DNA of 64,000 nt from a virus. Below are positions 6,329 through 64,000 of this stretch, piece by piece (the stretch's first letter is position 1; each line of letters starts with the position of its first letter). The notes beneath the pieces were generated by a model. That model made no database searches. It had not been told where the DNA came from and saw only the letters and a list, made by a program, of their open reading frames with translations. Location of the stretch: positions 18,518-82,517 of the IMG/VR virus record IMGVR_UViG_3300009078_000075; one strand, 5' to 3'. Position numbers and translations under genes: made by a program.

Positions 6329-8692
6329 TTAAGCTATATAAACATCGGAAATATTAAAAGTATGGGCTAATCTTGATCTTTTTCTAAACATACAAGCATA
6401 ACGTACTTCATCTGCTATATGATCCTCTTGACTATTTGCTATATCATCGGGATTTTTATCATCCCGAACAAGAAAAGGAACTGTTCTAATAAAATCAGTA
6501 CATGTTGCTAATACATATAATAAAGGTCCCTGTGATTCCTCTTCCCCTTCAAATCGTCCCCTTAATTGTTGCCATCCTGGTATTCTTGATTTATCAGATT
6601 GTACAAATAAATCATACCCCATTTGTTTAGCTATTGAATCTCCACCCCGCTCTTCCCAAATTTGATTATCTGCGGGCCCTTTCCTTATATTTAATGATGA
6701 CCATTTTTTTTCTCTTTCAATTATTCCTTCCCCAATTTTTTTATTAAGTAATCGTAGCCCTGTATTTGGATTAATCGCTTTTTTATCATTTCCATACCAT
6801 TCAGAAAATCGAATTAAGGTTCCCCTTGGATATGTTACCCCATTTGGTGCAGGGGTCCCATCTGATTCTGTCCACCATCCAACTGAAAATGGGGACCCTG
6901 ATCCCCAGTCAAAAGAACGAAAACAGAACCAATGTCTGGGAGGTATAAAACATTTTGACAAAGGAATTACATTTTTTGATGAGTTCCAAACATCGGAAAA
7001 AAATCCTCCAACATTTACATCCCATCGTCCATATACCCATGCTTTTACAAGTTCTTTATCGGGAAGAGCCAAAAGACGGGATCGATATTCGGGGTCCATA
7101 TTCATAAAAGGAATATTTTCAAGCATGTTTCCAAATATAGAGACCCTTTTATGTCCTTTATCATTAATAACCGTTCCCCATGGTGCAGGATCAATAAAAT
7201 AATTTTTAACTGCACTACGTCCGATTCCCCATGGATTCCCTGTGGACCGGATACGGATAGGAATACCCATCCCCGTTGCTCGGTTACAGCTAATCATACT
7301 TTGATAACAATCCATGTCTGGCCAATTTAATAATTCTTCCCATCCGATCCACGAATAACTATTTCCTGATAACCAAGTAGATCCATTTTGTCTAATAAAA
7401 AAATTATGATTTTTTTCAACACCTAAACAATAAACTTTACCATTATATTTTATTCGTTTAATTTGTGATTTTAATTTCTTTTTATTTAATTTTCTAATTC
7501 TATTGTCAGTATATAATTTAAGTTCTTTTTTTGGATTAAAAGCAATTGTATATAAAATTTTATTTTTACAACCTTCTTTTTTTTGAATAGCAGAATAAAC
7601 AGAATACCCGAGTTTTACCCCAATTTCTTGTAAATCATCACTCATTTTTTTAGATATTGTATATATATAAACTCTATTTTGCTGTTTTGTTCCATCTCCA
7701 AGTGCATATGCATCAAAAAAAGCTTGTAAACATTCTCTATTACTTTGTTTTATATTATTAGGAATATATTTATCTTTACATTTTCCAAATTTAGAAAGGT
7801 ATAAATATTGTTTTTTATCTCTCCAAACAAATCCAAAATTAGTTTTATTATATTTAATTTTTAAATTGTCAAGAAGATTTTGTATAATTTTTACATTTTG
7901 TTCCTTTTGTTGACAAATTCCTATTGTATAATGTTTTTTATAAAGATTGGTGTATCCCTCTGATAAAAACCATCCCATAAATTTACAATAATTAATATCT
8001 AAATTCTTTCCTTTTGTTAATTTCCATCCACTATTTTTTATTTTAGTTATTCTTGGTAATTTTGAATATTCTATCAATTCGTTTGAGATTGAAGGAAGTT
8101 TATGTTCTGGGGTAAAAGACATATATTTTCCACGACCATTATAAATTATTAAATCTCCATTATAATCTTCTATTGTTTTGGTTTTAACCATTTGATAAGA
8201 TAATTCATTTTTTTTATTAGTACTTAAAACTTTTTCTCCTATTTTTATATTTTGAATAGGTATCCACCCATTTTTTGTTAAAATATCCCCTTTATCTACA
8301 CAATGCCCATGATAGTTATCGTAGTCATTTCGATCCCAAAAATATCGTAAATATAAAAGTTCCCCCCCCGGAAAAGCCCATGTATAATCTGCTTTATTAA
8401 ATTCTGCCTTTGGACATGCCATCCGAAACCATTTTTTTGATTTAATAACAAGATCTGATAATTGTTTATATGTTCGCCTAAAAAGAATCCCTCTCCAATC
8501 TGAGCCATACCCTTTTCCAACCTCTTGAAAGAAATCCATGATTAAAGCATCGGTCTTACCAACTGCCCGTGTACCTGTGTATAGTACTTGATGATAAGGA
8601 CATGAAAGAAACAAACATTGAGATCCCGGATTTGGTTTCCAAACAACACTTAAATTATCAAGATTTTTTTTATTATTAAGTTCTCGGTTCAT
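6329..8692 (-). CDS. terL: Terminase large subunit containing an intein
   Basis: GTRAVGKT Walker A, WEEL Walker B, STGNP, SFDWG and EDHIADEVRY RNase H-like motifs. Confidence 0.92.
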   Translation of the reverse strand: MNRELNNKKNLDNLSVVWKPNPGSQCLFLSCPYHQVLYTGTRAVGKTDALIMDFFQEVGKGYGSDWRGILFRRTYKQLSDLVIKSKKWFRMACPKAEFNKADYTWAFPGGELLYLRYFWDRNDYDNYHGHCVDKGDILTKNGWIPIQNIKIGEKVLSTNKKNELSYQMVKTKTIEDYNGDLIIYNGRGKYMSFTPEHKLPSISNELIEYSKLPRITKIKNSGWKLTKGKNLDINYCKFMGWFLSEGYTNLYKKHYTIGICQQKEQNVKIIQNLLDNLKIKYNKTNFGFVWRDKKQYLYLSKFGKCKDKYIPNNIKQSNRECLQAFFDAYALGDGTKQQNRVYIYTISKKMSDDLQEIGVKLGYSVYSAIQKKEGCKNKILYTIAFNPKKELKLYTDNRIRKLNKKKLKSQIKRIKYNGKVYCLGVEKNHNFFIRQNGSTWLSGNSYSWIGWEELLNWPDMDCYQSMISCNRATGMGIPIRIRSTGNPWGIGRSAVKNYFIDPAPWGTVINDKGHKRVSIFGNMLENIPFMNMDPEYRSRLLALPDKELVKAWVYGRWDVNVGGFFSDVWNSSKNVIPLSKCFIPPRHWFCFRSFDWGSGSPFSVGWWTESDGTPAPNGVTYPRGTLIRFSEWYGNDKKAINPNTGLRLLNKKIGEGIIEREKKWSSLNIRKGPADNQIWEERGGDSIAKQMGYDLFVQSDKSRIPGWQQLRGRFEGEEESQGPLLYVLATCTDFIRTVPFLVRDDKNPDDIANSQEDHIADEVRYACMFRKRSRLAHTFNISDVYIA
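7361..8302 (-). mobile_element. Intein (314 aa) with LAGLIDADG homing endonuclease
   Basis: GH|CVDKGDILTKNGW N-terminal junction; TPEH block B; FMGWFLSEG and FFDAYALGDG; VYCLGVEKNHNF...SGN|S C-terminal junction. Confidence 0.9.
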
Positions 8693-9834: not shown

Positions 9835-11805
9835 ATGAAAATTGATGAAATTGTTCAATCGAATGAATATACAATTTCAGCATTATTAGCTCTTTACGGG
9901 TATCAAACACAAGATGAACAAACTTCAGAATACACAACATCATTAAATGGAGCAGGATTTAATAAAATTGATGCCCCTATTCTTTCCTCTATTTCACAAT
10001 TTTTTCTTAAAAATGGATTTTTAACCGAAAAACAATTATCCCTTGTAAAAAGATCAATTAAAAAATATCATACACAAATTGAAGCATTTGAATTAACTCC
10101 TGTAAAAACAAAAGAACCAAAAACAAAAGAACCAAAAACACAAGAAAATGGGGGGACCCCTTTTGAGGGAATTAAAAAGGCAAGACTCGAAAAAGATTTT
10201 ATTTATCTTAAATTTCATTTTGCAAAGGGAGATAAAAAATTCTTTGAAATTCTTACAAAAGTAAAAACATTAGCATGGAGACAATGGGACCCCGATACAA
10301 AAGAATGGAAAGTAAGGCGTTCCCTTGAAACATTAAAAAAATTACATGAGTGGGAATTTAAATTTGATGTTGAATTACAGAAATGGTATGAATCAGTTTT
10401 TAGCAATAACATTAATAAGGATCTTGACGTTCCCATTGATATGTCTCTTTACCCATTTCAAAAAGAAGGGGTAGCATTTATTGATCTTAAAAATGGAAGG
10501 GCATTAATCGGGGATGAAATGGGACTTGGGAAAACCTGTCAAGCAATCGGATGGACATCCCTTCATCCTGATAAAAAACCCGTACTTATCATATGTCCTT
10601 CCAATGTCAAATTAAATTGGAAAAGGGAAATCAAAAAGTGTCTTCCCCGGGCAAGGGTTGAATTGGTAGAAGGACGGGATTATAAGGGAGCAATGGACGG
10701 TGATTATGTTATTTGTAATTATGATATAGTGTCAAAAAATAAGGAAAAACTCATATCCACAAATTTTAAAGTATTGATACTTGATGAATGTCATTATATA
10801 AAAAACTATAAAGCAAAACGAACTGCAGTAATTACTGAAATCGGAAAGGCAATTGAACATGTTATTTGTTTATCAGGGACTCCGATTGTTAATCGTCCCA
10901 TTGAATTTTTTACAGCATTAAATTTACTACGTCCTGATTTATTCCCCTCATATTGGGAATATGTTAATAAATATTGTCCGGCAGATGGATGGACAAAGTG
11001 GCAAACAACAAAAGGTTCTGCAAATGAAATTGAACTTCATAATAATTTAATTCAAACCATGATGTTAAGACGATTAAAAAAAGATGTTTTAACACAGCTT
11101 CCGTTAAAGCAACGGCAAGTTATCCCTATGGAATGTGATTTGACAGAATACAATAAAGCGGAAGACGATTTAATTTCATGGATGAAAGAAAATGGATATG
11201 GTAAAGACAAAATTTTTTGTGCTATGAATGCTGAAATTATTACAAGGATTGAGTATTTAAAACAAATTGCAGTAAAGGCAAAATATGAATCAATTGTTGA
11301 TTGGATTAATAATTATTTAAGCTCAGGGAAAAAATTAGTTATTTTTTGTACTCATCATGCAACGATTGATTTTTTAATGGAAACATTTAAAGGAATTGCA
11401 GTAAAATTAGATGGGCGTGATAATATGGGAAAAAAACAAATTGCCATTGATCGATTTCAAAGTGATCAAGAAATTAGACTTTTTATAGGAAATATAAAAG
11501 CGGCAGGAGTGGGAATTGATGGTTTACAAAATGTAGCAGAGGACACATGTTTTATTGAGTTAGGATGGACCCCTGGTGATCATAATCAAGCAGAAGATCG
11601 AGTACATCGAATTGGACAAGAGGCAGATTCAGTGACAGCTTTTTATTTATTGACTGCTGGTACAATTGAAGAGGAAATTGCAGAATTAATTGATAAAAAA
11701 AGAAATGTATTAAATCAGATTTTAGACGGAAAAGTGCCCGATGAAACCGAATTGATAAGTATTTTATTAAATAACCTTTTAAATAAGGAGACAAAAAATG
11801 GATAA
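9835..11805 (+). CDS. SNF2-family (HARP/SMARCAL1-like) helicase
   Basis: LYPFQ, DEMGLGKT, DECH, LSGTP, MLRRLKKDV, QAEDRVHRIGQ. Confidence 0.93.
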   Translation: MKIDEIVQSNEYTISALLALYGYQTQDEQTSEYTTSLNGAGFNKIDAPILSSISQFFLKNGFLTEKQLSLVKRSIKKYHTQIEAFELTPVKTKEPKTKEPKTQENGGTPFEGIKKARLEKDFIYLKFHFAKGDKKFFEILTKVKTLAWRQWDPDTKEWKVRRSLETLKKLHEWEFKFDVELQKWYESVFSNNINKDLDVPIDMSLYPFQKEGVAFIDLKNGRALIGDEMGLGKTCQAIGWTSLHPDKKPVLIICPSNVKLNWKREIKKCLPRARVELVEGRDYKGAMDGDYVICNYDIVSKNKEKLISTNFKVLILDECHYIKNYKAKRTAVITEIGKAIEHVICLSGTPIVNRPIEFFTALNLLRPDLFPSYWEYVNKYCPADGWTKWQTTKGSANEIELHNNLIQTMMLRRLKKDVLTQLPLKQRQVIPMECDLTEYNKAEDDLISWMKENGYGKDKIFCAMNAEIITRIEYLKQIAVKAKYESIVDWINNYLSSGKKLVIFCTHHATIDFLMETFKGIAVKLDGRDNMGKKQIAIDRFQSDQEIRLFIGNIKAAGVGIDGLQNVAEDTCFIELGWTPGDHNQAEDRVHRIGQEADSVTAFYLLTAGTIEEEIAELIDKKRNVLNQILDGKVPDETELISILLNNLLNKETKNG

Positions 11806-17468: not shown

Positions 17469-18407
17469 ATGATTTGTAAAGAATGTGGAATTAATTTTTC
17501 TATAATAACCCATACTCATTTAAAAAAACATAATCTTACAATAAATGAATATAAAAATAAATATAATATAGTTTCTTTGGTTGATCCATGTTTTGGACAA
17601 AAAATGAGTATGAAGTTAAAGGGGAAAATTAATATAGGAGAAAAAAATGCAAGTAAACGAAAAGAAGTAAGATCAAAAATTTCTGAATCTGTTAAAAATA
17701 GATGGGAAGAAGGAAAGTATAAAAATCGTATAAATGGGATGTTAGGAAAACTCGGAGAATTGTCTCCTAATTTTAAGATTGAAAAAAGAACTCCTTTGTT
17801 TTTGGCAGAACACAATTATGTAAAATTTTTGTCTCAATTTCAAGATACACATGTTTGTAGTTTGTGTAAAAGTTCCGATAAAAAAATTAATATACATCAT
17901 ATTGATGAAGATCATTCTAATTTTCTTCCTTCTAATTTAGAACCTTTATGTGTTCCGTGTCATTCTCAATATCATTATAAATTTGCAAAGGGACCTTTTA
18001 TGAGAATTGGTAAATTTTTTTCTTTTGCTGGTGCTCATTTTTTACCTGATTATGATGGTATTTGTAATCATCTTCATGGGCATGAATGGAAATTAGAAGT
18101 GTTTGTAAAAAAAAGAGTTAATTATAAGACTGGAATGGTTTTAGATTTTACTATTTTAAAAAAAATAGTAGATAATTTTATTATTTCAAAATTAGATCAT
18201 TGTTTTTTAAATGATATTATATCTAATCCAACTGCGGAAAATATATTAATTTGGATATGGGAAAAATTAATGTTTGATGGTTTATTAAAAGGAATAGATG
18301 AAATAAATTTATGGGAAACAGAAAAAAGTAAAATTTCTCTCAGTAGTAAAGAAATGCTATCTATTTTTTCAAATAATATTGAAGAATATATTTTGGGGGA
18401 AATATGA
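17469..18407 (+). CDS. queD: HNH endonuclease fused in frame to 6-carboxytetrahydropterin synthase QueD
   Basis: CSLC...HHIDEDHSN...NLEPLCVPCH, then FAGAHFL, CNHLHGH, DF..LK, LDH..LN, PTAENI, LWET. Confidence 0.88.
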   Translation: MICKECGINFSIITHTHLKKHNLTINEYKNKYNIVSLVDPCFGQKMSMKLKGKINIGEKNASKRKEVRSKISESVKNRWEEGKYKNRINGMLGKLGELSPNFKIEKRTPLFLAEHNYVKFLSQFQDTHVCSLCKSSDKKINIHHIDEDHSNFLPSNLEPLCVPCHSQYHYKFAKGPFMRIGKFFSFAGAHFLPDYDGICNHLHGHEWKLEVFVKKRVNYKTGMVLDFTILKKIVDNFIISKLDHCFLNDIISNPTAENILIWIWEKLMFDGLLKGIDEINLWETEKSKISLSSKEMLSIFSNNIEEYILGEI

Positions 18408-19075
18408 TGATAAAAGTAAATGAAATATTTTTATCAATTGATGGTGAAGTAAATGCCTTTGGTCAGGGGGGATTTTCTACATTTATTCGTTTTTCTGGTT
18501 GTAATTGTAAATGTAATTATTGTGATACTCAGTATCATAATACTGGTACTTATTATTCAATTGCACAAATTATGGATAAAGTAAGGGAAATCGGATGTAA
18601 TAAAATAACAATCACAGGGGGGGAACCTTTGCTTCAATCAGAAAGTATACCCTTGATTGAAGCATTAGTATTTAGTCATCATAGTGTTTCCGTTGAAACA
18701 AATGGATCAATTGAAGTTCCTTTTATAATGGGATCATTTTATTTGTCATTTGTGGTGGATTATAAATTACCATCATCCGGAATGATGGATCGAATGAAAC
18801 CGATAAAAATGTTTCAAAAATTAGGACCCCTTGATTTTGTAAAATTTGTTATTCAAAATGATGAAGACTTTTTATGTGCTTGCCGTATTGCAAAAGAGGT
18901 GAGAAGTGTAAATTATGGGACATCAATTGCTTTTAGTCCTGTATTTTTAAAACAAGATGATGGTCGTTTTATTCAATCGTATCCCTTATATGATAAAATG
19001 ATTGAAGCAAAACTATTTGAAATTCCAAAAATGTTTCTTAATTATCAAATTCATAAAATAATAGGATTAAAGTAA
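18404..19075 (+). CDS. queE: 7-carboxy-7-deazaguanine synthase (radical SAM)
   Basis: EIFLSIDGE, FIRFSGCNCKCNYCDT, TGGEP, ETNG, QIHK. Confidence 0.93.
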   Translation: MMIKVNEIFLSIDGEVNAFGQGGFSTFIRFSGCNCKCNYCDTQYHNTGTYYSIAQIMDKVREIGCNKITITGGEPLLQSESIPLIEALVFSHHSVSVETNGSIEVPFIMGSFYLSFVVDYKLPSSGMMDRMKPIKMFQKLGPLDFVKFVIQNDEDFLCACRIAKEVRSVNYGTSIAFSPVFLKQDDGRFIQSYPLYDKMIEAKLFEIPKMFLNYQIHKIIGLK

Positions 19076-19087
19076 AGGAGAAAAATC

Positions 19088-19768
19088 ATGAAATTAGATA
19101 ATGATAATTGTCTTGTTCTTTTATCTGGGGGACAAGATTCTACTACTTGTCTTTTTTGGGCATTAAATAATTTTAATGAAGTAAATGCTCTGTTTATTAA
19201 TTATAAACAAAGGCATCGAATAGAAGAGGAATCAGCTTTTAAAATTGCAAATCTTGCTGGTGTTCCCATTGGATTGATATGTACTGATATTATAGCAGAT
19301 ATTGGGGATTCTGCCCTTGTTATGACGGGAGATATTTTAAGTAAACATAGATCCGGGGATTTACCGGCTTCTTTTGTACCAGGAAGAAATATTTTATTTT
19401 TGACAATAGCTGCTATGTATGCTTATAAATTAGGAATACATAATATTGTGGCAGGGGTTTGTGAAACTGATTATTCAGGATATCCCGATTGTAGACAAAA
19501 AACGATTGATTCTGTTCAAAATACCCTTAATTTGGGAATGGAATATGATTTTGTTATACATACCCCTTTGATGTATAAAACTAAATGTGAAACTGTTATA
19601 ATGGCTTCTTTATTGTCCGGGTGTTGGGATGCCCTTGCATGGAGTCATACATGTTATGAGGGAAAAATTCCACCTTGTGGTAAATGCCCTTCATGTGTGT
19701 TGAGGGCACGTGGATTTGAAGAAGCCGGATATGAAGATCCTTTAATAAAAAGACTGGGGATTAAGTAA
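19088..19768 (+). CDS. queC: 7-cyano-7-deazaguanine synthase
   Basis: SGGQDSTT, VPGRN, GYPDCR, TCY...CGKCPSC..R. Confidence 0.96.
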   Translation: MKLDNDNCLVLLSGGQDSTTCLFWALNNFNEVNALFINYKQRHRIEEESAFKIANLAGVPIGLICTDIIADIGDSALVMTGDILSKHRSGDLPASFVPGRNILFLTIAAMYAYKLGIHNIVAGVCETDYSGYPDCRQKTIDSVQNTLNLGMEYDFVIHTPLMYKTKCETVIMASLLSGCWDALAWSHTCYEGKIPPCGKCPSCVLRARGFEEAGYEDPLIKRLGIK

Positions 19769-20670
19769 TGAATAAATTATTTTATACTTGGAGAGATTTT
19801 CAAAAAGATGTTAATTTATTAGTTGAGACGTGTACAAGATATTCAGCAATATATGGGGTTCCCAGAGGGGGAATTCCCTTGGCCGTTGCTTTGTCTCAAA
19901 GAACCGGAATTCCTATTATTGAAGATAAAGAACAAGTAATACATGATAATACAGTATTAGTGGTTGATGATATAGTAGATTCAGGAAAAACAAGGAATAA
20001 ATTTTTAAAAAATAATTTTATTGCAATTCATGGTCGATGTAAATGGGAAGACACATTGACTATAAATTGTTTAAATTATTCGGATGATTGGATTGTTTAT
20101 CCTTGGGAGGTTGATACTGAAAATACAGGTCCTACAGATTCAGTAACCCGATTGATTGAATTTATAGGGGAAGATCCAAATAGGGAAGGCATTATTGATA
20201 CCCCAAAGAGAGTTATTAAATCATATGAAGAAATATTTAAGGGGTATATACAAGAACCTTCTCAAATATTTACTACTTTTGATTCAGAGGGATATGATTC
20301 CCTTGTAATGCTTAAAAATATAGAAATATATTCTATGTGTGAGCATCATATGCTTCCTTTTTTTGGAAAAGCCCATATAGCGTATATTCCAGATGGAAAA
20401 ATAATCGGGATATCTAAATTAGCAAGACTTGCAGAAATTTATTCACGGAGAATGCAAATTCAAGAAAGAATAGGGGAACAAATTACCTCTGATTTAATGA
20501 AATATCTTAAACCAAAGGGGGCAGCATGTATTATTGAGGCTTCCCATTTATGTATGAGGATGAGAGGGGTAAGTAAGCAAAATTCTACAATGATGACCAG
20601 TTCTTTAAAAGGTGTTTTCCTTGAAAATATTTCTGCTCGACAAGAGCTTATGGAATTGATAAAAGATTAA
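19768..20670 (+). CDS. folE: Type I phosphoribosyltransferase fused to GTP cyclohydrolase I
   Basis: N-terminal VPRGG, VLVVDDIVDSGKT, WIVYPWE; C-terminal REG..DTPKR, CEHH, GISKLAR, QIQER, HLCMRMRG. Confidence 0.93.
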   Translation: MNKLFYTWRDFQKDVNLLVETCTRYSAIYGVPRGGIPLAVALSQRTGIPIIEDKEQVIHDNTVLVVDDIVDSGKTRNKFLKNNFIAIHGRCKWEDTLTINCLNYSDDWIVYPWEVDTENTGPTDSVTRLIEFIGEDPNREGIIDTPKRVIKSYEEIFKGYIQEPSQIFTTFDSEGYDSLVMLKNIEIYSMCEHHMLPFFGKAHIAYIPDGKIIGISKLARLAEIYSRRMQIQERIGEQITSDLMKYLKPKGAACIIEASHLCMRMRGVSKQNSTMMTSSLKGVFLENISARQELMELIKD

Positions 20671-20750: not shown

Positions 20751-21245
20751 ATGGATCAGGAAAAGAATGAAATTCCGGTTTATGTTTCAAATTTTGAGAT
20801 GTATCAGAGAGCCCTGCAGAAGGAAATTCAAATGTGGGAGCGAAATGTTCGGCTTCTTAACGAAAGTCTTGGAAAGCGATATTTGAAAGATCCCGATCTT
20901 TGTATTTTTATTGAGGATATTGGGAAACTTTCATATGGGGGGGCTGTTGTGTGTCATTTTTCAGAGAAAATGGCAAAGGAAGCTGGGAAAAATCCTTCAT
21001 GTTGTGATTTTTGTCCTGCTGTTATGTGCGGGAATGGCCATTGTGAAGAGCGGGATAACAATCGGAAGATGGTCGGGGTGTGGGGATTATTTGACAATTC
21101 TCTTGATTATCTTATTCAGGGGAATGAGCGGCCGAGAATTCAAATGTATCATGTAGAGGCTGCTACAGCAATTCTTTTGTGGTTGAGAAAGACAAAATTC
21201 AATCTACAAAAGATGTATTCACAATGGTACAACGGGGGGGATTAA
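20751..21245 (+). CDS. Hypothetical Cys-rich protein
   Basis: AGGAG RBS after class B box; CCDFCPAVMC..HC. Confidence 0.65.
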   Translation: MDQEKNEIPVYVSNFEMYQRALQKEIQMWERNVRLLNESLGKRYLKDPDLCIFIEDIGKLSYGGAVVCHFSEKMAKEAGKNPSCCDFCPAVMCGNGHCEERDNNRKMVGVWGLFDNSLDYLIQGNERPRIQMYHVEAATAILLWLRKTKFNLQKMYSQWYNGGD

Positions 21246-21957: not shown

Positions 21958-22519
21958 ATTTTAAATATTGAAGGGAATATGATTACAAAAATAGTAAATT
22001 CAAAAGAAGAATTTTTAATTATCCCTTTGATAATGTCTCAAAGTATGGTGGTAGAGGAAGATATGGAGGTGATTTTAAATAATAAAACAGGAACTAAATA
22101 TCTTTTTCATCCTTGTCCATCAAATAATAAATTTTATAAAAAAATGTATTATAATGTAAAAAGAATGAGTGATCGTGAATTTAAATTTAAAACAGGTGGA
22201 TTTTTTTCTTAAAATATTGAAATGGAGAAAAAAATGGAAAACATTAATGAAGTACAGTCAGATTTGAAGGAAGAAGTTATGCAGAAATTAAATCAGATAA
22301 AAAAACCAGTGAGGTCTTTTATTTCTCATCATAGTGGAAAAAATGCATTGGCATTTCTTTCATTGGCTTCTCTTTTTGCTCCACCAATGAATGTTCCCCT
22401 TGATGATGAATCAGGATTATGTATTCCTAAACTTGATAAATGTTTATTAAATAAAAAGAACAGGAATAGGCGAAGGAATCAGATTGCAAAAATGTCAAGG
22501 AAAAGGAACAGAGGATAAA

Positions 22520-23095
22520 ATGATCATTGGGATAACTGGATATAAAGGTGTTGGGAAGGATGTTGCCGCTCAGGTATTTACAAACATGGGATTTGTTCAT
22601 TACAAATTTGCAAATGCTTTAAAACAAGCATTAAAGATTTTGTTTTTATGGGATGATCAATATATTGAGGGTCCTTTAAAGGAAACGATTGATGAAAGAT
22701 GGGGAATTTCTCCGAGACAAGCAATGCAATTTTTTGGTACTGAAATAGGACGTGAATTATTGCCAAAAACATTTCCTTTATTTAAAGAAAAAAATGGGGA
22801 CAATTATTGGGTAAGATATTTTAAATATTGGCGTGAGCAATTTAAATATCAAGAGGTTAATATTGTTGTTTCTGATGTTCGATTTCCTAATGAAGTTGAC
22901 AGTATTAGAGAGATGGGGGGGGTTATTTTACGAATATCTCGCCCTTCTGTCATAAATAATGATCCTCATGTATCTGAAAAATTTATTAAACAAATTGATC
23001 CTGAATATGAAATAGCTAATATGCATTCATTAGAAGAGTTTATACAACAAGTTAAATGTGTTTATTCATTAATTTTATCATGGAAGTGTGTATAA
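22520..23095 (+). CDS. Deoxynucleoside monophosphate kinase
   Basis: IIGITGYKGVGKD, FA..LK, PRQAMQFFGTE, VSDVRFPNE, HVSE. Confidence 0.9.
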   Translation: MIIGITGYKGVGKDVAAQVFTNMGFVHYKFANALKQALKILFLWDDQYIEGPLKETIDERWGISPRQAMQFFGTEIGRELLPKTFPLFKEKNGDNYWVRYFKYWREQFKYQEVNIVVSDVRFPNEVDSIREMGGVILRISRPSVINNDPHVSEKFIKQIDPEYEIANMHSLEEFIQQVKCVYSLILSWKCV

Positions 23096-23104
23096 GATTT
23101 TAAT

Positions 23105-23572
23105 ATGAAAATATTGGTAATGAGTGAAAAGCTTTGTTTGTCAAAAATGAAAGAGCCTTTTTTTGAAAGTTTTATTGTTATATCAATATCCAGTCCTGAT
23201 AGAAAAGGAATACGTTTGTATAATCCTTTTATGAGGGAAGCTTTATATTTACAATTTTATGATCTTGATACAAAACCATTAGATAAATTTTTTTATACTG
23301 TTAATGGGACAAAAGAAAAATTTGTTCTTTTTAATAAAAAGGATGCTAAAAATATTTTACAGTTTGTTAAAAAATATGAAAAAGAGGTTGATTTAATTAT
23401 AGTAAATTGTGGGGCAGGTATTTCCCGATCTGCCGGTGTTGCTGCTGCTCTATCTTTTATATATAATGGAGATAATTCTTTTTATTTTAGGCAATATTCA
23501 CCAAATAAACTTGTATATCGGATTATTCTTAATGAGTATAATAAGGGGAAAAATAATGGGATTGTCTGCTAA
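23105..23572 (+). CDS. Cys-based protein tyrosine/dual-specificity phosphatase-like protein
   Basis: LQFYD and CGAGISRS (CX5R). Confidence 0.8.
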   Translation: MKILVMSEKLCLSKMKEPFFESFIVISISSPDRKGIRLYNPFMREALYLQFYDLDTKPLDKFFYTVNGTKEKFVLFNKKDAKNILQFVKKYEKEVDLIIVNCGAGISRSAGVAAALSFIYNGDNSFYFRQYSPNKLVYRIILNEYNKGKNNGIVC

Positions 23573-24167
23573 ATCTTTTTTTGCTATTTGTAATGATGTT
23601 GCCCAAAATTCAAAATGCTTATCTCGAAAAATAGGCGCTGTTATTGTACGGGATGGAGCTATTGTAGGGACAGGGTATAATGGTCCTCCGAGAGGGGTCC
23701 CCCATTGTGGTGTCAGACATCAATATGATAATAAATTACAGGAGGAATATTATAATAAAAAAGCATGTTTTTGTTCTGATTGTTCTTGGGATGGAAAAAG
23801 TTTTCCAATAATAATAAGTGGAAATACTATTACATCTGCAATTACAAGTACAATATGTCCTCGCCAAATATTGGGATATAAATCAGGGGAAGGATTAGAA
23901 TGGTGCATAGCGGGACATGCTGAACGGAATGCCCTTATAAATTGTGCCCGAGAGGGAATTTCTACAAAGGGGTGTTCTATGTATATGTCTTGTGGAATTT
24001 CCTGCACTCCTTGTTTAGTGGAAATTATTAATGCCGGGATTGTGGAAATTATTGTTACCAAATTTTCATTTTATGATTTATCAGGGGAGTATTTAGTTAG
24101 AAATTCATCACTTATAGTAAAAAATTTTGACGGAGAGGTTTTTAAAAAATGGGAAAGAAAAAAGTAA
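23556..24167 (+). CDS. dCMP deaminase
   Basis: SKC..RKIGAVI, GYNG, HAERNA, CTPC. Confidence 0.88.
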   Translation: MGLSAKSFFAICNDVAQNSKCLSRKIGAVIVRDGAIVGTGYNGPPRGVPHCGVRHQYDNKLQEEYYNKKACFCSDCSWDGKSFPIIISGNTITSAITSTICPRQILGYKSGEGLEWCIAGHAERNALINCAREGISTKGCSMYMSCGISCTPCLVEIINAGIVEIIVTKFSFYDLSGEYLVRNSSLIVKNFDGEVFKKWERKK

Positions 24168-24503
24168 AAAAAATCAGTGACCTTGCTTTTTTTTATAAAA
24201 TAAGGAAACAAATGCCTGATCCTTCAGAGGCACATTCTTTGAAAAATAAGTATAATAAGTCAAAATTTAAGAAAGAAGAAAAGGAATTTAACAAAACATA
24301 TAAAGGGAAATCTTTTTTTGAAAGTGATGATGAATAATGGAAACTGTTCTTCTTCAATGTTCAAAATGTGAAAAAATAGTGAGAAGGAATATTATTAAAA
24401 ATGGGACTTCTTTATTTTTTTGCATTACGTGTAATGAAATTATGGAAATTGTAGAAGTGTATACTGTAACTGCTCCCCCTAATATTGAAAATGAGGAAAA
24501 AGA

Positions 24504-25076
24504 ATGATTCAAGTTAAATTTAAAAAAATTAATGAAAATGCTGTTATTCCAAAATATGCATACCCCAATGATTCCGGTTTTGATTTTTGTACAATTGAAG
24601 GTGTTTCAGTTTTTTATGGGGAAATTACTTTAATAAGAACAGGATTACAAATTGAATTACCAGGGGGAATTTCTTTTCTTAAAGAAAAATCGATTGATGA
24701 TTATGAACAAAATAGAAAAGATATATTTCATTCCCCTTTACCTATTAATGATTATCCTTTTTTTAATAATATACGAAATGGACAATTAATCCTTGTTCCA
24801 GAATTACAAATTAGAGCAAAAAGTGGATTAGCATTAAATCATGGGATACAAGTTGTAAATGGCCCTGCAACGGTGGATAATTCATATCGAGGAGAAATTA
24901 AAGTATTAATTACAAGGGTCATTCCCGGACAATATTTTTTTAATAAAGGGGAAAAATTTGCTCAAGGGGTAATTTCATTGGTAATGAGTACCCCGTCTGT
25001 TCAATTTCAAGAAGTTTTAGAATTGTCAAAAACAGAAAGATCAGATGGGGGATTTGGTAGTACAGGGAATTGGTAA
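24504..25076 (+). CDS. dut: Trimeric dUTPase with internal insertion
   Basis: SGFD, KSGLA, TVDNSYRGE, AQ, RSDGGFGSTG. Confidence 0.9.
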   Translation: MIQVKFKKINENAVIPKYAYPNDSGFDFCTIEGVSVFYGEITLIRTGLQIELPGGISFLKEKSIDDYEQNRKDIFHSPLPINDYPFFNNIRNGQLILVPELQIRAKSGLALNHGIQVVNGPATVDNSYRGEIKVLITRVIPGQYFFNKGEKFAQGVISLVMSTPSVQFQEVLELSKTERSDGGFGSTGNW

Positions 25077-61165: not shown

Positions 61166-62548
61166 CTAAGATGTTATTAAATGATGTTTTTTCGCATAGC
61201 ATTCCATCGCCATTTTGAAATAACTTTTAAATTCAATATCAGTCATATTATGTTTCATTCGATTGATCCCTGCATCTACCCATTGTAAATTGTTAATATC
61301 GTTGCTACCGCCTTTACTACGGGGTAAAATATGATCGAGATGCATGTTCTTTTCATTTAATGGACGCCGTGAATAAACACATTTAATCCCTTGATCCTTT
61401 AGCTTTTGTAACAATTGAACAGCTAAAAGATCCTTGTCACATCCTTTAAAACACTTACCATAAAGTCTTCCCTTTATCAAGCGAAGCATTTTTTGTTCGT
61501 CAATAATGGAAGGGGCCTCATCTTTTCCATAACAAAAATAAGCGAGTTCTTTCAAATAAATTTCAAACTCGTCATTAGTCATGCCATTTTTCATGTAATT
61601 GACATATCGATCTATCCACTGTAAATTCAAAGTAACATTTTGACCGCCCTTACATCGGGGTTCCTTATGATCAAGTGAGGCATTTATCCCCAATATCAAT
61701 GGAATGCCCATAGACCTACATGTAGAATCATCTTTGAATTCCTGTATTAATTCATCGATTGAAACCAATGAAATATCACCATGGCAATTATTATCATCTA
61801 TACAAACATTATACACTTGATGTTCAACATAATGAAATTTACACAATCCCCGTCCGATTGCAGGTTGCCCGCATCGGGTTCCATTTACTTTTTTAAAGCA
61901 AATTTTATATTTTTTACGTTTTTTAATGGTTTTTTTAGTAAATTCATTATTTTTAGTTGCACATTCAATGCAATAAAGTTTATTCCCTTCTGCAATTGGG
62001 TTTTTGCCACACCATGTGCAAATTCCCATAGCTTTTAATTTGTTTTGAATTTTTTTAACAGATTTATTATGTTTGGCTACATGATCTTTACAATACTGTT
62101 TATTCCCTTCTGCTAAAGGATTATTACAATCACGGCATTTTCTTTGAGCATTACGGGCATCACCACGTTTTTTACCGGTCTCATTATGTTTGCTCGAATG
62201 AAACACACAATAGAATTTTCCTTCTACGGCGGGTTCTTTACATTTGCCCCAAGTGCAAATTCCCAATGCGATTTTTGTTTCACGTTTTTTCTTTAATTCT
62301 TCCCTATGTGTTTCACGAAATTTTCTATTGGCCTCCTTACCTTTGATCAAATGAAATGTACAACAGGTTTTCCCTTCTACGGCGGGTTCTTTACATTTGC
62401 CCCAAGTGCAAATTCCCAATGCAATTTTTGTTTCACGTTCTTTCTTTCTTTCTTCACTATGGGACGCATTATACTCCCGATGATATTCCTTTTTTTCTTC
62501 CTTTGTCATTGCCATTTGCCGTTTTCCTTTATCAAGTATCCCCTGCAC
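61166..62548 (-). CDS. Tandem-HNH endonuclease with N-terminal Cys/His repeats (probable start 62515)
   Basis: LDHKEPRCKGG.N...NLQW and LDHILPRSKGGSN...NLQW; repeated C..(..)C..P...G...C..H units. Confidence 0.8.
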   Translation of the reverse strand: MQGILDKGKRQMAMTKEEKKEYHREYNASHSEERKKERETKIALGICTWGKCKEPAVEGKTCCTFHLIKGKEANRKFRETHREELKKKRETKIALGICTWGKCKEPAVEGKFYCVFHSSKHNETGKKRGDARNAQRKCRDCNNPLAEGNKQYCKDHVAKHNKSVKKIQNKLKAMGICTWCGKNPIAEGNKLYCIECATKNNEFTKKTIKKRKKYKICFKKVNGTRCGQPAIGRGLCKFHYVEHQVYNVCIDDNNCHGDISLVSIDELIQEFKDDSTCRSMGIPLILGINASLDHKEPRCKGGQNVTLNLQWIDRYVNYMKNGMTNDEFEIYLKELAYFCYGKDEAPSIIDEQKMLRLIKGRLYGKCFKGCDKDLLAVQLLQKLKDQGIKCVYSRRPLNEKNMHLDHILPRSKGGSNDINNLQWVDAGINRMKHNMTDIEFKSYFKMAMECYAKKHHLITS

Positions 62549-62553
62549 ACATA

Positions 62554-62588
62554 AAAAAACCCCTGTAATTCCTCAATTAACCAGGGGC
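62554..62588 (-). terminator. Intrinsic terminator
   Basis: CCCCTG/CAGGGG stem followed by T7 on minus. Confidence 0.6.
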
Positions 62589-62656
62589 ATTTATATTTGT
62601 TTATTCTCTAAAACCTACTCTCATTAACCTTGTTCTTCAACCTTTTCAAAGGTTCC

Positions 62657-63154
62657 TTACACCTTCATTAGGTATTCACGAAAATTCCTTTTCATGTATC
62701 CGGATATTGCCGGTGGACTCACGCCTATTTCATGGGCAAATGCCGTCTGTTTGAATGTCCCCGCATCAATCCGCCTTTTGATCTCATCATGATACCCCGG
62801 GATGATGTTCCTGCGCCCACGCTTCACAGGGACCTTTTCAGGGGGGATAACATCAATGGGCACCTCTACAGGGGCATCTGTGGGGGGCTCAGGGACATCC
62901 ATAGGAGCGTTCACAGGGACATCCATAGGGGCCTTCACAGGGGTCCCCTCTTCTTCTTCATCGGGTGGTTCAGGCACCCGTACACCCTGACAAGCTGGGC
63001 AAACGTACCATTGTCCGAAAAGTACCGGCCCCTTGGTCGTGTCTTTCGTTTCAGGCGCCCACTTGTTACCGCACAAAAGGCACTCAAGACGCTTCGGTTC
63101 GTTTGTGAAGATACTGACGTTTACTGCACTTAGTTCTGATTTCCTGAATCTCAT
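62657..63154 (-). CDS. Zn-ribbon + Pro-rich linker + HTH protein
   Basis: CLLC, CPAC, APMDVP repeats, QTAFAHEIGVSPPAISGY; class A promoter. Confidence 0.65.
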   Translation of the reverse strand: MRFRKSELSAVNVSIFTNEPKRLECLLCGNKWAPETKDTTKGPVLFGQWYVCPACQGVRVPEPPDEEEEGTPVKAPMDVPVNAPMDVPEPPTDAPVEVPIDVIPPEKVPVKRGRRNIIPGYHDEIKRRIDAGTFKQTAFAHEIGVSPPAISGYMKRNFREYLMKV

Positions 63155-63503
63155 CGGCTTTCTCCTTTGTTAAAGGTTGCTGTTTTCCCTCTCTATTATA
63201 TATATCGGCATATATTACTTTTTTGATCGGTTAATTTAAGGTTAAGGCATCATAATAACGATCCCTAAAAGTAAACCCAAAATGAATATAAACCCTATGG
63301 CTAAAAATGTATTAAATTCATCCATATCCATGTTCCTTATGTTTGGGTTAACAAAAAATCAAAATGGCAGCAATAAAAAAGGAAAATAAACATGTCCCCA
63401 TCATAATTTTTTCGTATCCGTTGTAAAGCACCATGTTTCATTTTTCCCCTGTATTAAAAGTTTTTATTCAAAAACCTCTCTCATTAACCTTATATCAATT
63501 CAA

Positions 63504-63764
63504 TTATTGTGATATTGCTGATAATTCAGCTACTGCATTTTTCGTTTCCCATGCTTCAATCCGTTTCCAAAGGACATCTGAAACTGATATTGAATCGGAT
63601 GCCGTTTTCCCGGTTCTTACTGCCCCTGAATGTCCAATGAAATAAAGTTTATTTGATGATGGGGTTAAAAATGTTCGGTACTTTTTTGACCGAGAAGAAA
63701 TTTCCCTGAGACCCATTGCTGTAAAAAAATTCACTGCCCTTTGTTCCTTTGTTACTTTTGCCAT
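63504..63764 (-). CDS. Hypothetical protein
   Basis: CCTTTAACACAGGAGA leader as at 9500. Confidence 0.6.
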   Translation of the reverse strand: MAKVTKEQRAVNFFTAMGLREISSRSKKYRTFLTPSSNKLYFIGHSGAVRTGKTASDSISVSDVLWKRIEAWETKNAVAELSAISQ

Positions 63765-63800
63765 TGTCTTTCTCCTGTGTTAAAGGTTTCTATTTTTTAA

Positions 63801-64000
63801 TTAATATTTTGCCCCATAAAAATTGGCCTCTCGAACATCAGCCCCCTTAAGATTGGCCCTCCGAAGATCGGCCCCTGTAAGATCGGCCCCCTCAAGATCG
63901 GCCCCCTCACGATCGGCCCTCCGAAGATCGGCCCCTCGAAGATCGGCATCCCGAAGATCCGCCCCACCAAGATTGACACTTTGAACATCGGCCCCTCGTA
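63801..64000 (-). CDS. Pentapeptide repeat protein (partial, C-terminal end)
   Basis: Hand-translated ADVQS-VNLGG-ADLRD-ADLRG-ADLRR...ANFYGAKY*; different frame from the ORF track call. Confidence 0.85.
   Translation of the reverse strand, partial: RGADVQSVNLGGADLRDADLRGADLRRADREGADLEGADLTGADLRRANLKGADVREANFYGAKY

What the first reader, a model, noticed from the sequence alone, without database searches (positions are those of the whole stretch)
17469..20670. preQ0 pathway with a PRTase-FolE fusion and no DpdA in the window
Seen: QueD, QueE, QueC and FolE are translationally coupled, and FolE carries an N-terminal purine-PRTase-like domain (PRGG, VVDDIVDSGKT, WIVYPWE). No DpdA/TGT, QueF, ArcS or Gat-QueC is recognisable in 64 kb. 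Known: FolE-QueD-QueE-QueC make preQ0, which phages usually insert into DNA by DpdA base exchange. Inference: the PRTase could turn preQ0/CDG into a nucleotide, with the nearby dNMP kinase supporting polymerase-level incorporation. Alternatively it salvages guanine released by an out-of-window DpdA back towards GTP for FolE.
Basis: partly seen in the sequence, partly recalled or inferred. Interest (0 to 1): 0.8.

Follow-up and report, generated by a model that had tools for sequence, protein, structure and literature searches.

The report
Guanine-salvage domain fused to phage FolE
This uncultured phage carries the four genes that make the modified base preQ0. The enzyme that swaps preQ0 into DNA (DpdA) is not missing: it lies just outside the window. 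The extra domain on FolE is a stripped-down guanine-salvage enzyme that most likely recycles the guanine DpdA expels, not a new route through nucleotides.

Summary
QueD (17469-18407), QueE (18404-19075), QueC (19088-19768) and a 300-aa PRTase-FolE fusion (19768-20670) form one tightly coupled operon. No DpdA, QueF or Gat-QueC lies in the 64-kb window.

The window is only part of an 82.5-kb virus record. A DpdA1-type DNA transglycosylase sits 7.4 kb before the window start, at record positions 10189-11124 on the minus strand, between an SbcC-like gene and a clamp plus DNA polymerase, as in Pseudomonas phage PaMx25. Support:
- 40% identity to PaMx25 DpdA.
- phrog_887, E 1e-46.
- Best solved-structure match is DpdA 7UI4.
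- The Asp/Asp/His/Asp active-site set is invariant.

So the "DpdA-less, nucleotide-level" reading loses its premise.

The N-terminal domain is a loop-less Gpt/XGPRT-like 6-oxopurine phosphoribosyltransferase. Among the 80 nearest viral loci it is fused to FolE in 30 and lies near a separate FolE in 40. A DpdA lies within 10 kb in 62. It also occurs, unremarked, in cultured DpdA phages (Nipunavirus, phiST, immuto).

Best reading: it turns DpdA-released guanine into GMP. This activity is inferred, not assayed.

This scan has reached the same reading on at least eight other genomes. I found no paper that discusses the domain.

The parts
17469..18407 (+). QueD (CPH4 synthase). The QueD domain is residues ~180-291 (nt ~18006-18341). 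It follows an in-frame ~175-aa N-terminal HNH / MucR-type zinc-finger extension.
   Evidence: PTPS E 5e-27 at 180-291; ROS_MUCR at 2-34; HNH at 130-170; phrog_2389 QueD-like and several HNH endonuclease phrogs; internal ATG at 18000 with AAGGGA 6 nt upstream; the extension is absent from the other QueD ORFs of related loci.
18404..19075 (+). QueE (7-carboxy-7-deazaguanine synthase, radical SAM).
   Evidence: Radical_SAM E 5e-12; best NCBIfam matches are QueE models (TIGR03963, E 6e-43, below its equivalog cut-off). ATGA overlap with the QueD stop.
19088..19768 (+). QueC (preQ0 synthase), plain form without a Gat domain.
   Evidence: PF06508 E 6e-66. TIGR00364 214 bits, over cut-off 150. SGGQDS PP-loop and C-terminal Cys cluster in the translation.
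19768..20112 (+). N-terminal domain of the fusion (residues 1-115): a loop-less Gpt/XGPRT-like type I purine phosphoribosyltransferase.
   Evidence: Pribosyltran 27.2 bits; phrog_8995 phosphoribosyl transferase, E 2e-11, residues 1-118; best solved relatives are 1vdm and E. coli/Yersinia XGPRT (Foldseek E 1e-9, TMq 0.77); model pLDDT 91. RGG, DD, DxGxT and W...WE are invariant or nearly so; the Gpt flexible loop is deleted.
20140..20670 (+). C-terminal domain of the fusion (residues 125-300): GTP cyclohydrolase I (FolE, zinc type IA).
   Evidence: PF01227 E 2e-71. TIGR00063 222 bits, over its cut-off. CEHH and HLCM motifs in the translation. TAATG overlap with the QueC stop.

Best explanation
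The stretch is the preQ0-synthesis operon of a phage 7-deazaguanine DNA-modification system.

Steps:
1. FolE, QueD, QueE and QueC convert GTP to the free base preQ0.
2. A DpdA1-type DNA transglycosylase exchanges guanines in replicated phage DNA for preQ0. Its gene lies 27 kb from FolE, in the replication module and outside the window.
3. The product is dPreQ0-DNA, since no QueF, Gat-QueC or ArcS is present.
4. The N-terminal domain of FolE is a minimal Gpt-like 6-oxopurine phosphoribosyltransferase. It most likely takes the guanine that DpdA expels, plus PRPP, and makes GMP.

That reaction would do two things. It would remove a base that DpdA can put back into DNA. It would also refill the GTP pool that FolE draws on, one guanine recovered for each preQ0 made.

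Shown here: the gene identities, the DpdA gene, the fold and motifs of the PRTase domain, and its genomic linkage to FolE and DpdA.
Inferred: the modified base, the PRTase substrate, and the recycling role.

My odds: DpdA-mediated base exchange about 0.85. Guanine (or other 6-oxopurine) PRTase activity serving the DpdA cycle about 0.5.
For: DpdA in the same genome:
- PaMx25 DpdA hits record 10609-11112 (minus) at E 1e-32.
- BLASTP gives 40% identity over 176 residues, including DSGAF.
- phrog_887 'queuine tRNA-ribosyltransferase', E 1e-46.
- The model has pLDDT 86. Its best PDB match is DpdA 7UI4, and the other matches listed are tRNA-guanine transglycosylases.
- D12, D48, H138 and D157 are invariant in 31 homologues. 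They match in order the Asp95/Asp130/His181/Asp256 set shown to be essential or conserved in PMC10164549.
- The gene order DpdA, clamp-like gene, PolA is the same as in PaMx25.

PRTase domain:
- Fold and motifs are those of XGPRT.
- The active-site residues are invariant across the family.

Linkage among the 80 nearest IMG/VR loci:
- 30 are fused to FolE, 40 have a separate FolE in the locus, and 62 have a DpdA within 10 kb.
- One more has a DpdA further off in the record.
- In 11 loci the PRTase gene ends 3 nt before a 393-394-aa DpdA.
- The domain accompanies at least three sequence classes of DpdA.
- It also accompanies different end products: Gat-QueC in PaMx25, and QueF plus a formyltransferase in immuto. 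That fits a substrate common to all of them.

Other support:
- Cellular relatives are stand-alone Gpt-like genes of Campylobacterota with no such neighbours.
- DpdA uses free guanine as a substrate in the [14C]guanine exchange assay (PMC10164549).
- phiST and immuto carry the PRTase as a separate gene. They are reported as completely modified (PMC10516641).
Against: - No enzyme activity, substrate range or DNA composition is known for this phage or for any member of the mini-PRTase family.
- The family lacks the ~20-residue flexible loop of Gpt. From my own knowledge, that loop closes over the active site in full-size enzymes, so catalysis may be weak or work differently.
- The domain scores only 35 bits against the NCBIfam Gpt equivalog, cut-off 138.
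- GMP is two kinase steps away from GTP, so fusion to FolE cannot mean direct channelling.
- Ten of the 80 loci carry the PRTase without FolE nearby. At least two near-complete jumbo-phage records have it with no detectable DpdA. The domain is therefore not exclusive to this system.
- The 80 loci are the nearest relatives of a query set rich in fusions, which biases the co-occurrence count upward.
Confidence: 0.5

Rival explanations
1. General purine salvage. The mini-PRTase is an ordinary phage auxiliary gene. It scavenges guanine or hypoxanthine from degraded host nucleic acids to feed replication. It sits beside FolE only because both belong to nucleotide metabolism, with no special tie to DpdA.
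For: The same family occurs without FolE or DpdA in 10 of 80 loci. These include a complete 192-kb record with terminal repeats and a 257-kb record. Its cellular relatives are housekeeping Gpt-like genes. The window also carries a dNMP kinase, a dCMP deaminase and a dUTPase.
Against: 70 of the 80 nearest viral loci have FolE in the same ORF or locus, and 62 have a DpdA within 10 kb. In 11 loci the gene abuts dpdA with a 3-nt gap. An obligate fusion to FolE kept across about 35 protein clusters is hard to explain by chance neighbourhood.
Confidence: 0.2
2. Non-catalytic sensor. The loop-less PRTase fold only binds a purine, a nucleotide, PRPP or (p)ppGpp. It tunes FolE activity or assembly, as PRTase-fold regulators do in other systems.
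For: The flexible catalytic loop is deleted. One fold match is a PRTase-fold protein with bound ppGpp, 5vog. The fusion tethers the domain to FolE.
Against: Every residue class needed for chemistry is invariant or nearly so: the RGG PPi loop, the DD pair, the Asp of DxG, the GxT phosphate loop and the stacking Trp. Half of the family members are free-standing ~130-aa proteins, often placed next to dpdA rather than folE.
Confidence: 0.15
3. Nucleotide route. The PRTase acts like TubE/ToyH of tubercidin and toyocamycin biosynthesis. It attaches CDG or preQ0 to PRPP, and the product is processed to a dNTP and incorporated by the polymerase. DpdA would be absent or secondary.
For: There is a biochemical precedent: TubE is a CDG-specific PRPP transferase (PMC6112128). 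The base-pairing face of preQ0 is that of guanine, so a Gpt-like pocket could in principle bind it (my inference). One 97%-complete related record has the fusion but no DpdA detected. Its cluster lies at the contig edge.
Against: This genome has a DpdA. DpdA co-occurs in 27 of 30 fusion loci, and the three exceptions each have a flank of 1.5 kb or less on one side. No homologue of the dNMP kinase occurs in any of the 80 loci. No reductase, Nudix or other tailoring gene was seen beside the operon. The Asp of the DxG motif is nearly invariant; in 6-oxopurine PRTases, from my own knowledge, it contacts purine N7, an atom that 7-deazapurines lack. The family also occurs in phages with no deazapurine genes at all.
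Confidence: 0.07

Closest known systems
Queuovirinae-type phage 7-deazaguanine systems: DpdA1 with FolE-QueD-QueE-QueC, e.g. Pseudomonas phage PaMx25/NP1 and Escherichia phages CAjan and 9g (PMC6884629, PMC10516641, PMC10484667)
   Same: It has the same five enzymes. The DpdA is of the same sequence class: 40% identity to PaMx25, with best phage matches among DpdA-bearing phages such as Nonagvirus, Rhizobium phages and R7M. DpdA is followed by a clamp-like gene and a DNA polymerase, as in PaMx25. PaMx25 also has the PRTase-FolE fusion as a 297-aa ORF.
   Different: Here dpdA is 27 kb from the preQ0 operon and on the other strand. In related loci it lies within about 5 kb. QueD carries an HNH-like N-terminal extension. 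The genome is larger (82.5 kb, 31% G+C) and the host is unknown. 9g, CAjan, Rosebush, Dp-1, nt-1 and iggy show no PRTase domain at E <= 1e-3.
E. coli / Yersinia xanthine-guanine phosphoribosyltransferase Gpt (XGPRT; PDB 1NUL, 1A95-1A98, 4JLS, 6KP5); also P. horikoshii purine PRTase 1VDM and H. pylori XGHPRT 7KL6
   Same: Type I PRTase fold (Foldseek E 1e-9, TMq 0.75-0.79). Shared elements in the alignment are the RGG PPi loop, the DDxxDxGxT PRPP loop, a basic residue at the Gpt Lys115 position in most members, and a C-terminal W-I-x-x-P-W-E/D like WIEQPWD of Gpt.
   Different: It is about 115 aa against 152. It lacks 17-23 residues at the Gpt flexible loop. It scores only 35 bits against the Gpt equivalog NF006613, cut-off 138. 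It is fused to FolE or clustered with dpdA, whereas cellular Gpt stands alone. Its activity is untested.
TubE / ToyH, deazapurine phosphoribosyltransferases of tubercidin and toyocamycin biosynthesis (PMC6112128)
   Same: A purine-type PRTase encoded next to FolE, QueD and QueE homologues. TubE is shown to join CDG to PRPP.
   Different: Those gene clusters lack any transglycosylase and carry nucleotide-tailoring enzymes (GMP reductase, UbiD decarboxylase, Nudix). This phage has DpdA and none of those. TubE is 194 aa. I could not obtain its sequence, so no direct comparison was made.
[quoted passage not shown]
   Same: The same mini-PRTase family (33% and 28% identity) sits inside the deazaguanine cluster. 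In immuto, gp211 lies directly upstream of FolE gp210 and 1.8 kb from DpdA.
   Different: It is a separate gene, not a fusion. The DpdA is of another class: the immuto DpdA3 query finds nothing in this genome. The end products differ (formyl-preQ1, 7-deazaguanine), and complete replacement of G is reported for them.

Membership tests
Phage 7-deazaguanine DNA-modification system (DpdA plus preQ0 pathway) | Complete preQ0 pathway: FolE, QueD, QueE, QueC | tested here: met
   all four are found. FolE and QueC score over their curated cut-offs. QueD scores over the Pfam cut-off. QueE matches by Radical_SAM plus best hits to QueE models.
Phage 7-deazaguanine DNA-modification system (DpdA plus preQ0 pathway) | A DpdA-family transglycosylase encoded by the same genome (the signature protein, PMC10516641) | tested here: met
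   record 10189-11124, minus strand, outside the window.
Phage 7-deazaguanine DNA-modification system (DpdA plus preQ0 pathway) | 7-deazaguanine nucleoside present in virion DNA | not testable with these tools
   This needs LC-MS/MS of phage DNA. The phage is known only as a metagenomic record.
DpdA / TGT superfamily (for the out-of-window ORF) | TGT-like TIM-barrel fold | tested here: met
   pLDDT 86. The top PDB match is 7UI4 (DpdA), followed by bacterial, archaeal and eukaryotic TGTs (E 1e-4 to 1e-3, TMq ~0.4).
DpdA / TGT superfamily (for the out-of-window ORF) | Invariant active-site Asp (acid/base), Asp and His (base recognition) and Asp (nucleophile) | tested here: met
   D12, D48, H138 and D157 are the only invariant columns in 31 homologues. 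Their order and motif context match Asp95/Asp130/His181/Asp256 of PMC10164549. The residue mapping is by order and motif, not by superposition.
DpdA / TGT superfamily (for the out-of-window ORF) | Match to Pfam TGT (PF01702) or DUF6610 (PF20314) | tested here: not met
   no hit. Some phage DpdA classes also escaped earlier searches (PMC10516641), so I do not treat this as excluding membership.
Type I 6-oxopurine phosphoribosyltransferase (Gpt/XGPRT-like) | PRPP-binding loop (acidic pair followed by DxGxT) and PPi loop (RGG) | tested here: met
   R33 G34 G35, D67 D68, D71, G73 and T75 are invariant or >=90% conserved.
Type I 6-oxopurine phosphoribosyltransferase (Gpt/XGPRT-like) | PRTase core fold closest to XGPRT | tested here: met
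   pLDDT 91. The top matches are E. coli and Yersinia XGPRT chains, E ~1e-9.
Type I 6-oxopurine phosphoribosyltransferase (Gpt/XGPRT-like) | Flexible catalytic loop (loop II) | tested here: not met
   17-23 residues aligned to Gpt ~60-80 are deleted in the window protein and in most family members; the same gap appears against 1vdm residues 50-80.
Type I 6-oxopurine phosphoribosyltransferase (Gpt/XGPRT-like) | Score over the NCBIfam Gpt equivalog cut-off (NF006613) | tested here: not met
   34.9 bits against a cut-off of 138. I therefore call it Gpt-like and do not file it as Gpt.
Type I 6-oxopurine phosphoribosyltransferase (Gpt/XGPRT-like) | PRPP-dependent conversion of guanine, xanthine or hypoxanthine to the nucleotide | not testable with these tools
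   Needs an enzyme assay.
TubE/ToyH-type deazapurine PRTase pathway | No transglycosylase in the system; nucleotide-tailoring enzymes in the cluster | tested here: not met
   DpdA is present and co-occurs in 62 of 80 loci. No such tailoring genes lie beside the operon.
TubE/ToyH-type deazapurine PRTase pathway | Sequence relatedness to TubE/ToyH | not tested
   No TubE or ToyH sequence was obtainable with the tools, and the one scan of genome contigs was already used.
GTP cyclohydrolase I (FolE, type IA) | Family model over its cut-off, and zinc/catalytic CEHH...C motifs | tested here: met
   PF01227 239 bits; TIGR00063 222 bits (cut-off 182). SMCEHHMLPF and HLCMRMRG in the translation.

The most novel reading that the evidence does not exclude
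The loop-less PRTase fused to FolE accepts a 7-deazaguanine base (CDG or preQ0), as TubE does. The phage would then make a deazaguanine nucleotide in parallel with, or upstream of, DpdA exchange. Phage DNA could so be modified at the nucleotide-pool level.
Probability: 0.06. Interest if true: 0.8.

Novelty: new variant of a known kind. Interest (0 to 1): 0.42.

Why it matters
Phage 7-deazaguanine DNA modification is described as FolE-QueD-QueE-QueC plus DpdA. None of the papers I could search mentions a phosphoribosyltransferase in these clusters.

A small Gpt-like enzyme nevertheless travels with FolE and DpdA in many phages. These include cultured ones, where it is labelled only 'GTP cyclohydrolase' or is even mis-annotated (PaMx25).

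If it recycles the expelled guanine, it closes the pathway into a loop: DNA guanine, GMP, GTP, preQ0, DNA. That could help explain how some phages reach very high replacement levels. The idea can be tested with simple enzyme assays and with a domain deletion in a cultured phage.

For this particular finding the main result is corrective. The apparent lack of DpdA comes from where the window boundary falls.

Tried and rejected
- Pfam TGT, DUF6610/DpdA4 and the immuto DpdA3 protein found nothing in the genome. Only the PaMx25 DpdA1 query did. Negative family searches for DpdA are therefore unreliable.
- Pfam and NCBIfam scans of the DpdA ORF itself were also empty.
The contexts of the metagenomic fusion proteins could not be read that way, so I used the search for related loci on IMG/VR instead.
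- Alignment A2 was too diverse for the search for related loci, so A1 was used.
- My first fused/separate tally was wrong, because the profiles had been built from whole fusion ORFs. I redid it with domain-only profiles.
- I considered that the 565-aa PRTase ORF of L020/L021 was a larger fusion. It is an over-extended reading frame in high-G+C DNA.
- I considered the L064 record (97% complete, fusion present, no DpdA by profile or Pfam) as a true DpdA-less case. The cluster lies at the very edge of the contig, so a dpdA gene may simply be cut off. This stays unresolved.
- No direct comparison with TubE/ToyH was possible.
- I did not model the full-length fusion or its oligomer.
- The supplementary files of PMC10516641 are not held.
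Full report
WHAT IS THERE

The window is positions 18518-82517 of an 82,517-bp IMG/VR virus record. It has about 31% G+C, and CheckV rates it about 90% complete.

At 17469-20670 four plus-strand genes follow one another:
- QueD: PTPS domain at residues 180-291.
- QueE: radical SAM with a CX3CX2C motif.
- QueC: 226 aa, SGGQDS PP-loop, no glutamine-amidotransferase domain.
- A 300-aa protein. Residues 125-298 are GTP cyclohydrolase I (PF01227, 239 bits). Residues 1-118 match phosphoribosyltransferases (Pfam 27.2 bits against a cut-off of 26.3; phrog_8995, E 2e-11).

The junctions are ATGA, a 12-nt gap carrying AAGGAG, and TAATG, so the genes are tightly coupled. No Met lies between the PRTase domain and residue 182, which is already inside FolE. 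The fusion is therefore obligate.

IS DpdA REALLY MISSING?

Inside the window, yes. In the genome, no.
- Pfam TGT, DUF6610 (the DpdA4 family) and the immuto DpdA3 protein all found nothing.
- The DpdA of Pseudomonas phage PaMx25 hit record 10609-11112, minus strand, at E 1e-32. The ORF is 10189-11124 (311 aa) and ends 7.4 kb before the window begins.

Evidence that this ORF is a DpdA:
- 40% identity to PaMx25 DpdA over 176 residues, starting at the DSGAF motif.
- phrog_887 'queuine tRNA-ribosyltransferase', E 1e-46.
- Its best matches in cultured phages are DpdA1-type genes of Nonagvirus, Rhizobium phages, Alteromonas phage R7M and others.
- An AlphaFold model built on 31 homologues has pLDDT 86. 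Its best solved-structure match is the DNA preQ0 insertase DpdA (7UI4), and the other matches listed are tRNA-guanine transglycosylases.
- The only invariant columns of the alignment are D12, D48, H138 and D157. In order and motif context they match the Asp95/Asp130/His181/Asp256 active-site set of Salmonella DpdA (PMC10164549).

The gene sits in the replication module, in this order: clamp loader, gp32-like SSB, RecA, SbcC-like ATPase, DpdA, clamp-like protein, a UDG-PolA fusion. The order DpdA, processivity factor, polymerase is the same as in PaMx25.

No QueF is present; Pfam QueF touches only FolE, below its cut-off. The predicted DNA base is therefore dPreQ0. This is inferred from the gene content.

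WHAT IS THE N-TERMINAL DOMAIN?

By sequence, the closest solved proteins are P. horikoshii purine PRTase 1VDM, then HGPRTs and XGPRTs. A model of residues 1-122 (pLDDT 91) matches E. coli and Yersinia XGPRT best (E about 1e-9, TMq 0.75-0.79). 1VDM and H. pylori XGHPRT come next.

Aligned with E. coli Gpt, fetched from NC_000913.3, the domain keeps:
- the RGG pyrophosphate loop;
- the DDxxDxGxT PRPP loop;
- a basic residue at the Gpt Lys115 position in most members;
- the C-terminal W-I-x-x-P-W-E.

It lacks 17-23 residues where Gpt has its flexible loop.

Across 11 and 44 family members, G34 G35, D67 D68 and W108 are invariant. R33, D71, G73, T75, W113 and E114 are invariant or at least 90% conserved.

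Against the NCBIfam Gpt equivalog it scores 35 bits, with a cut-off of 138. I therefore call it a loop-less Gpt-like 6-oxopurine PRTase. It is not a Gpt orthologue.

HOW COMMON IS IT, AND WHAT KEEPS IT COMPANY?

A search with the N-domain found 37 protein clusters. About 35 of them are ~300-aa fusions with FolE.

Cultured phages:
- The fusion covers at least 80% of the query in 38 records.
- The N-domain alone hits 46 records. These are Nipunavirus (PaMx25, NP1, JG012 and others), Vibrio VpKK5-like phages and 1.207.B, Stenotrophomonas, Sphingomonas, Variovorax and Xanthomonas phages.
- It is a separate gene in Flavobacterium phage immuto, in Cellulophaga phages phiST, phi13:1 and phi19:2, and in Brevundimonas phages.
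- In PaMx25 the true 297-aa fusion ORF is split in the record into a wrong-frame 'hypothetical protein' and a short folE.

IMG/VR: a scan with the N-domain alignment gave 337 relatives, and I analysed the best 80 with domain-only profiles.
- 30 are fused to FolE, 40 have a separate FolE in the locus, and 10 carry the PRTase alone.
- A DpdA lies within 10 kb in 62 of 80.
- Among the fused loci it is 27 of 30. The three exceptions each have 1.5 kb or less of flank on one side.
- One further record has a DpdA about 14 kb away.
- Fused forms go with DpdA1-like genes (29 ORFs).
- Separate forms go with DpdA3-like genes (9) or with divergent 350-413-aa DpdA classes (18).
- In 11 loci the PRTase gene ends 3 nt before a 393-394-aa DpdA.

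Contrast with cellular genomes: the 50 best relatives are mostly stand-alone Gpt-like genes of Campylobacterota with no FolE or DpdA nearby.

Two near-complete jumbo-phage records, 192 kb with terminal repeats and 257 kb, carry the PRTase with no detectable DpdA.

HOW IT MOST LIKELY WORKS

DpdA works by base exchange and releases one guanine for each preQ0 inserted. It also accepts free guanine as a substrate, which is the basis of the [14C]guanine exchange assay (PMC10164549).

This genome holds 25,561 guanines, counting both strands. At the roughly 25-32% replacement reported for DpdA1 phages (PMC10516641; PMC6884629), that is about 6,400-8,200 guanines expelled per genome copy, with the same number of GTP molecules consumed. 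This is my arithmetic.

A guanine PRTase would remove the competing base and return it, through GMP, to the GTP that FolE uses.

Three observations fit an enzyme that links the last step of the pathway to the first:
- It attaches to FolE in one lineage and sits next to dpdA in others.
- It accompanies several DpdA classes.
- It accompanies several end products: Gat-QueC in PaMx25, QueF plus a formyltransferase in immuto, and plain QueC here.

Among phages whose DNA has been measured, the domain was found in phiST and immuto. Both are reported as completely modified (PMC10516641). It was not found in 9g, CAjan, Rosebush, Dp-1, nt-1 or iggy. It was also not detected in CP220, which is reported as fully modified too.

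All of this is genomic inference. No activity has been measured, and the missing loop leaves catalysis in question.

RIVALS

The nucleotide route has a real precedent in TubE, a CDG-PRPP transferase (PMC6112128). It is now unlikely here:
- DpdA is present and co-occurs almost everywhere the fusion does.
- The dNMP kinase at 22484-23095 has no homologue in any of the 80 loci.
- No nucleotide-tailoring genes flank the operon.
- The family also exists in phages without any deazapurine genes.

General purine salvage and a non-catalytic sensor role remain possible. I weigh both in the Rival explanations section.

PRIOR WORK

The three main papers on phage deazaguanines contain no mention of a phosphoribosyltransferase, and neither do the held supplements of the 2019 paper. 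A full-text search for DpdA together with 'phosphoribosyl' found nothing relevant.

This scan has noted the same fusion on many other genomes. At least eight follow-up reports reached the same reading. They were not used as evidence here, but my tests agree with them.

VERDICT

- The 'no DpdA' premise comes from where the window boundary falls.
- The system is an ordinary DpdA1-type dPreQ0 system.
- Its mini-Gpt domain on FolE is a widespread accessory part that I found described in no paper. The best guess for its job is guanine recycling.

Noticed in passing
window 17469-17999: QueD carries an in-frame ~175-aa N-terminal extension with a MucR-type zinc finger and an HNH nuclease motif. None of the other QueD ORFs in related loci has it; most are 120-230 aa. 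An internal ATG at 18000 with AAGGGA upstream could give a normal-size QueD. It looks like a homing-endonuclease gene that reads through into queD.
   Followed up: partly
L002:7886-8816 (Pseudomonas phage PaMx25, NC_041953.1): The record annotates gp38 'hypothetical protein' in one frame and a short folE in another. A single 297-aa ORF (L002:7923-8816) encodes the PRTase-FolE fusion, so this is probably an annotation error in a reference genome.
   Followed up: yes
L008, L010, L027, L029, L031, L033, L038, L039, L040, L046, L047 (about 3 nt after the PRTase gene): In these viral contigs a free-standing mini-PRTase gene ends 3 nt before a divergent 393-394-aa DpdA-like gene. This is a second, different way of tying the PRTase to the pathway.
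   Followed up: partly
L064 (IMGVR_UViG_3300034106_003179, 52.4 kb, CheckV 97%): This record has the PRTase-FolE fusion and QueD/E/C, but no DpdA by my profile or by Pfam TGT. The cluster lies at the contig edge just before terminase-size ORFs, so dpdA may be cut off. Otherwise it is a candidate DpdA-less genome.
   Followed up: partly
record G000:6435-9077, minus strand (outside the window; L136): The family A DNA polymerase carries an N-terminal uracil-DNA-glycosylase-superfamily domain (UDG, E 6e-19) ahead of its exonuclease and polymerase domains.
   Followed up: no
record G000:3397-6432 (minus strand), and window 22484-25076: A thymidylate-synthase-like gene and a sulfotransferase lie beside the polymerase. 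The window adds a dNMP kinase, a phosphatase-like protein, a dCMP deaminase and a dUTPase-like protein. Together they might point to a second, pyrimidine modification. Not examined.
   Followed up: no
window 20751-21245: A Cys-rich 164-aa ORF lies directly after FolE. It has no Pfam or PHROG match and no homologue in the 80 related loci.
   Followed up: partly
window 61166-64000: G+C rises to 41% at the end of the record, and the skew reverses. The last 100 bases are degenerate GATCGGCCC-like repeats. A 460-aa minus-strand ORF with an HNH domain lies at 61166-62548. This may be the genome end, or it may be foreign DNA.
   Followed up: no
record G000:1-429, minus strand (outside the window): A PP-loop ATPase (SFSGGKDS) runs up to the very start of the record, and its start may lie beyond the record end. 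It gave a weak QueC-profile hit but is not a QueC.
   Followed up: no
L034 and L075 records (192 kb with terminal repeats; 257 kb): Near-complete jumbo-phage records carry the same mini-PRTase with no FolE in the 20-kb locus and no DpdA detectable in the whole record. The domain therefore also exists outside deazaguanine systems.
   Followed up: partly
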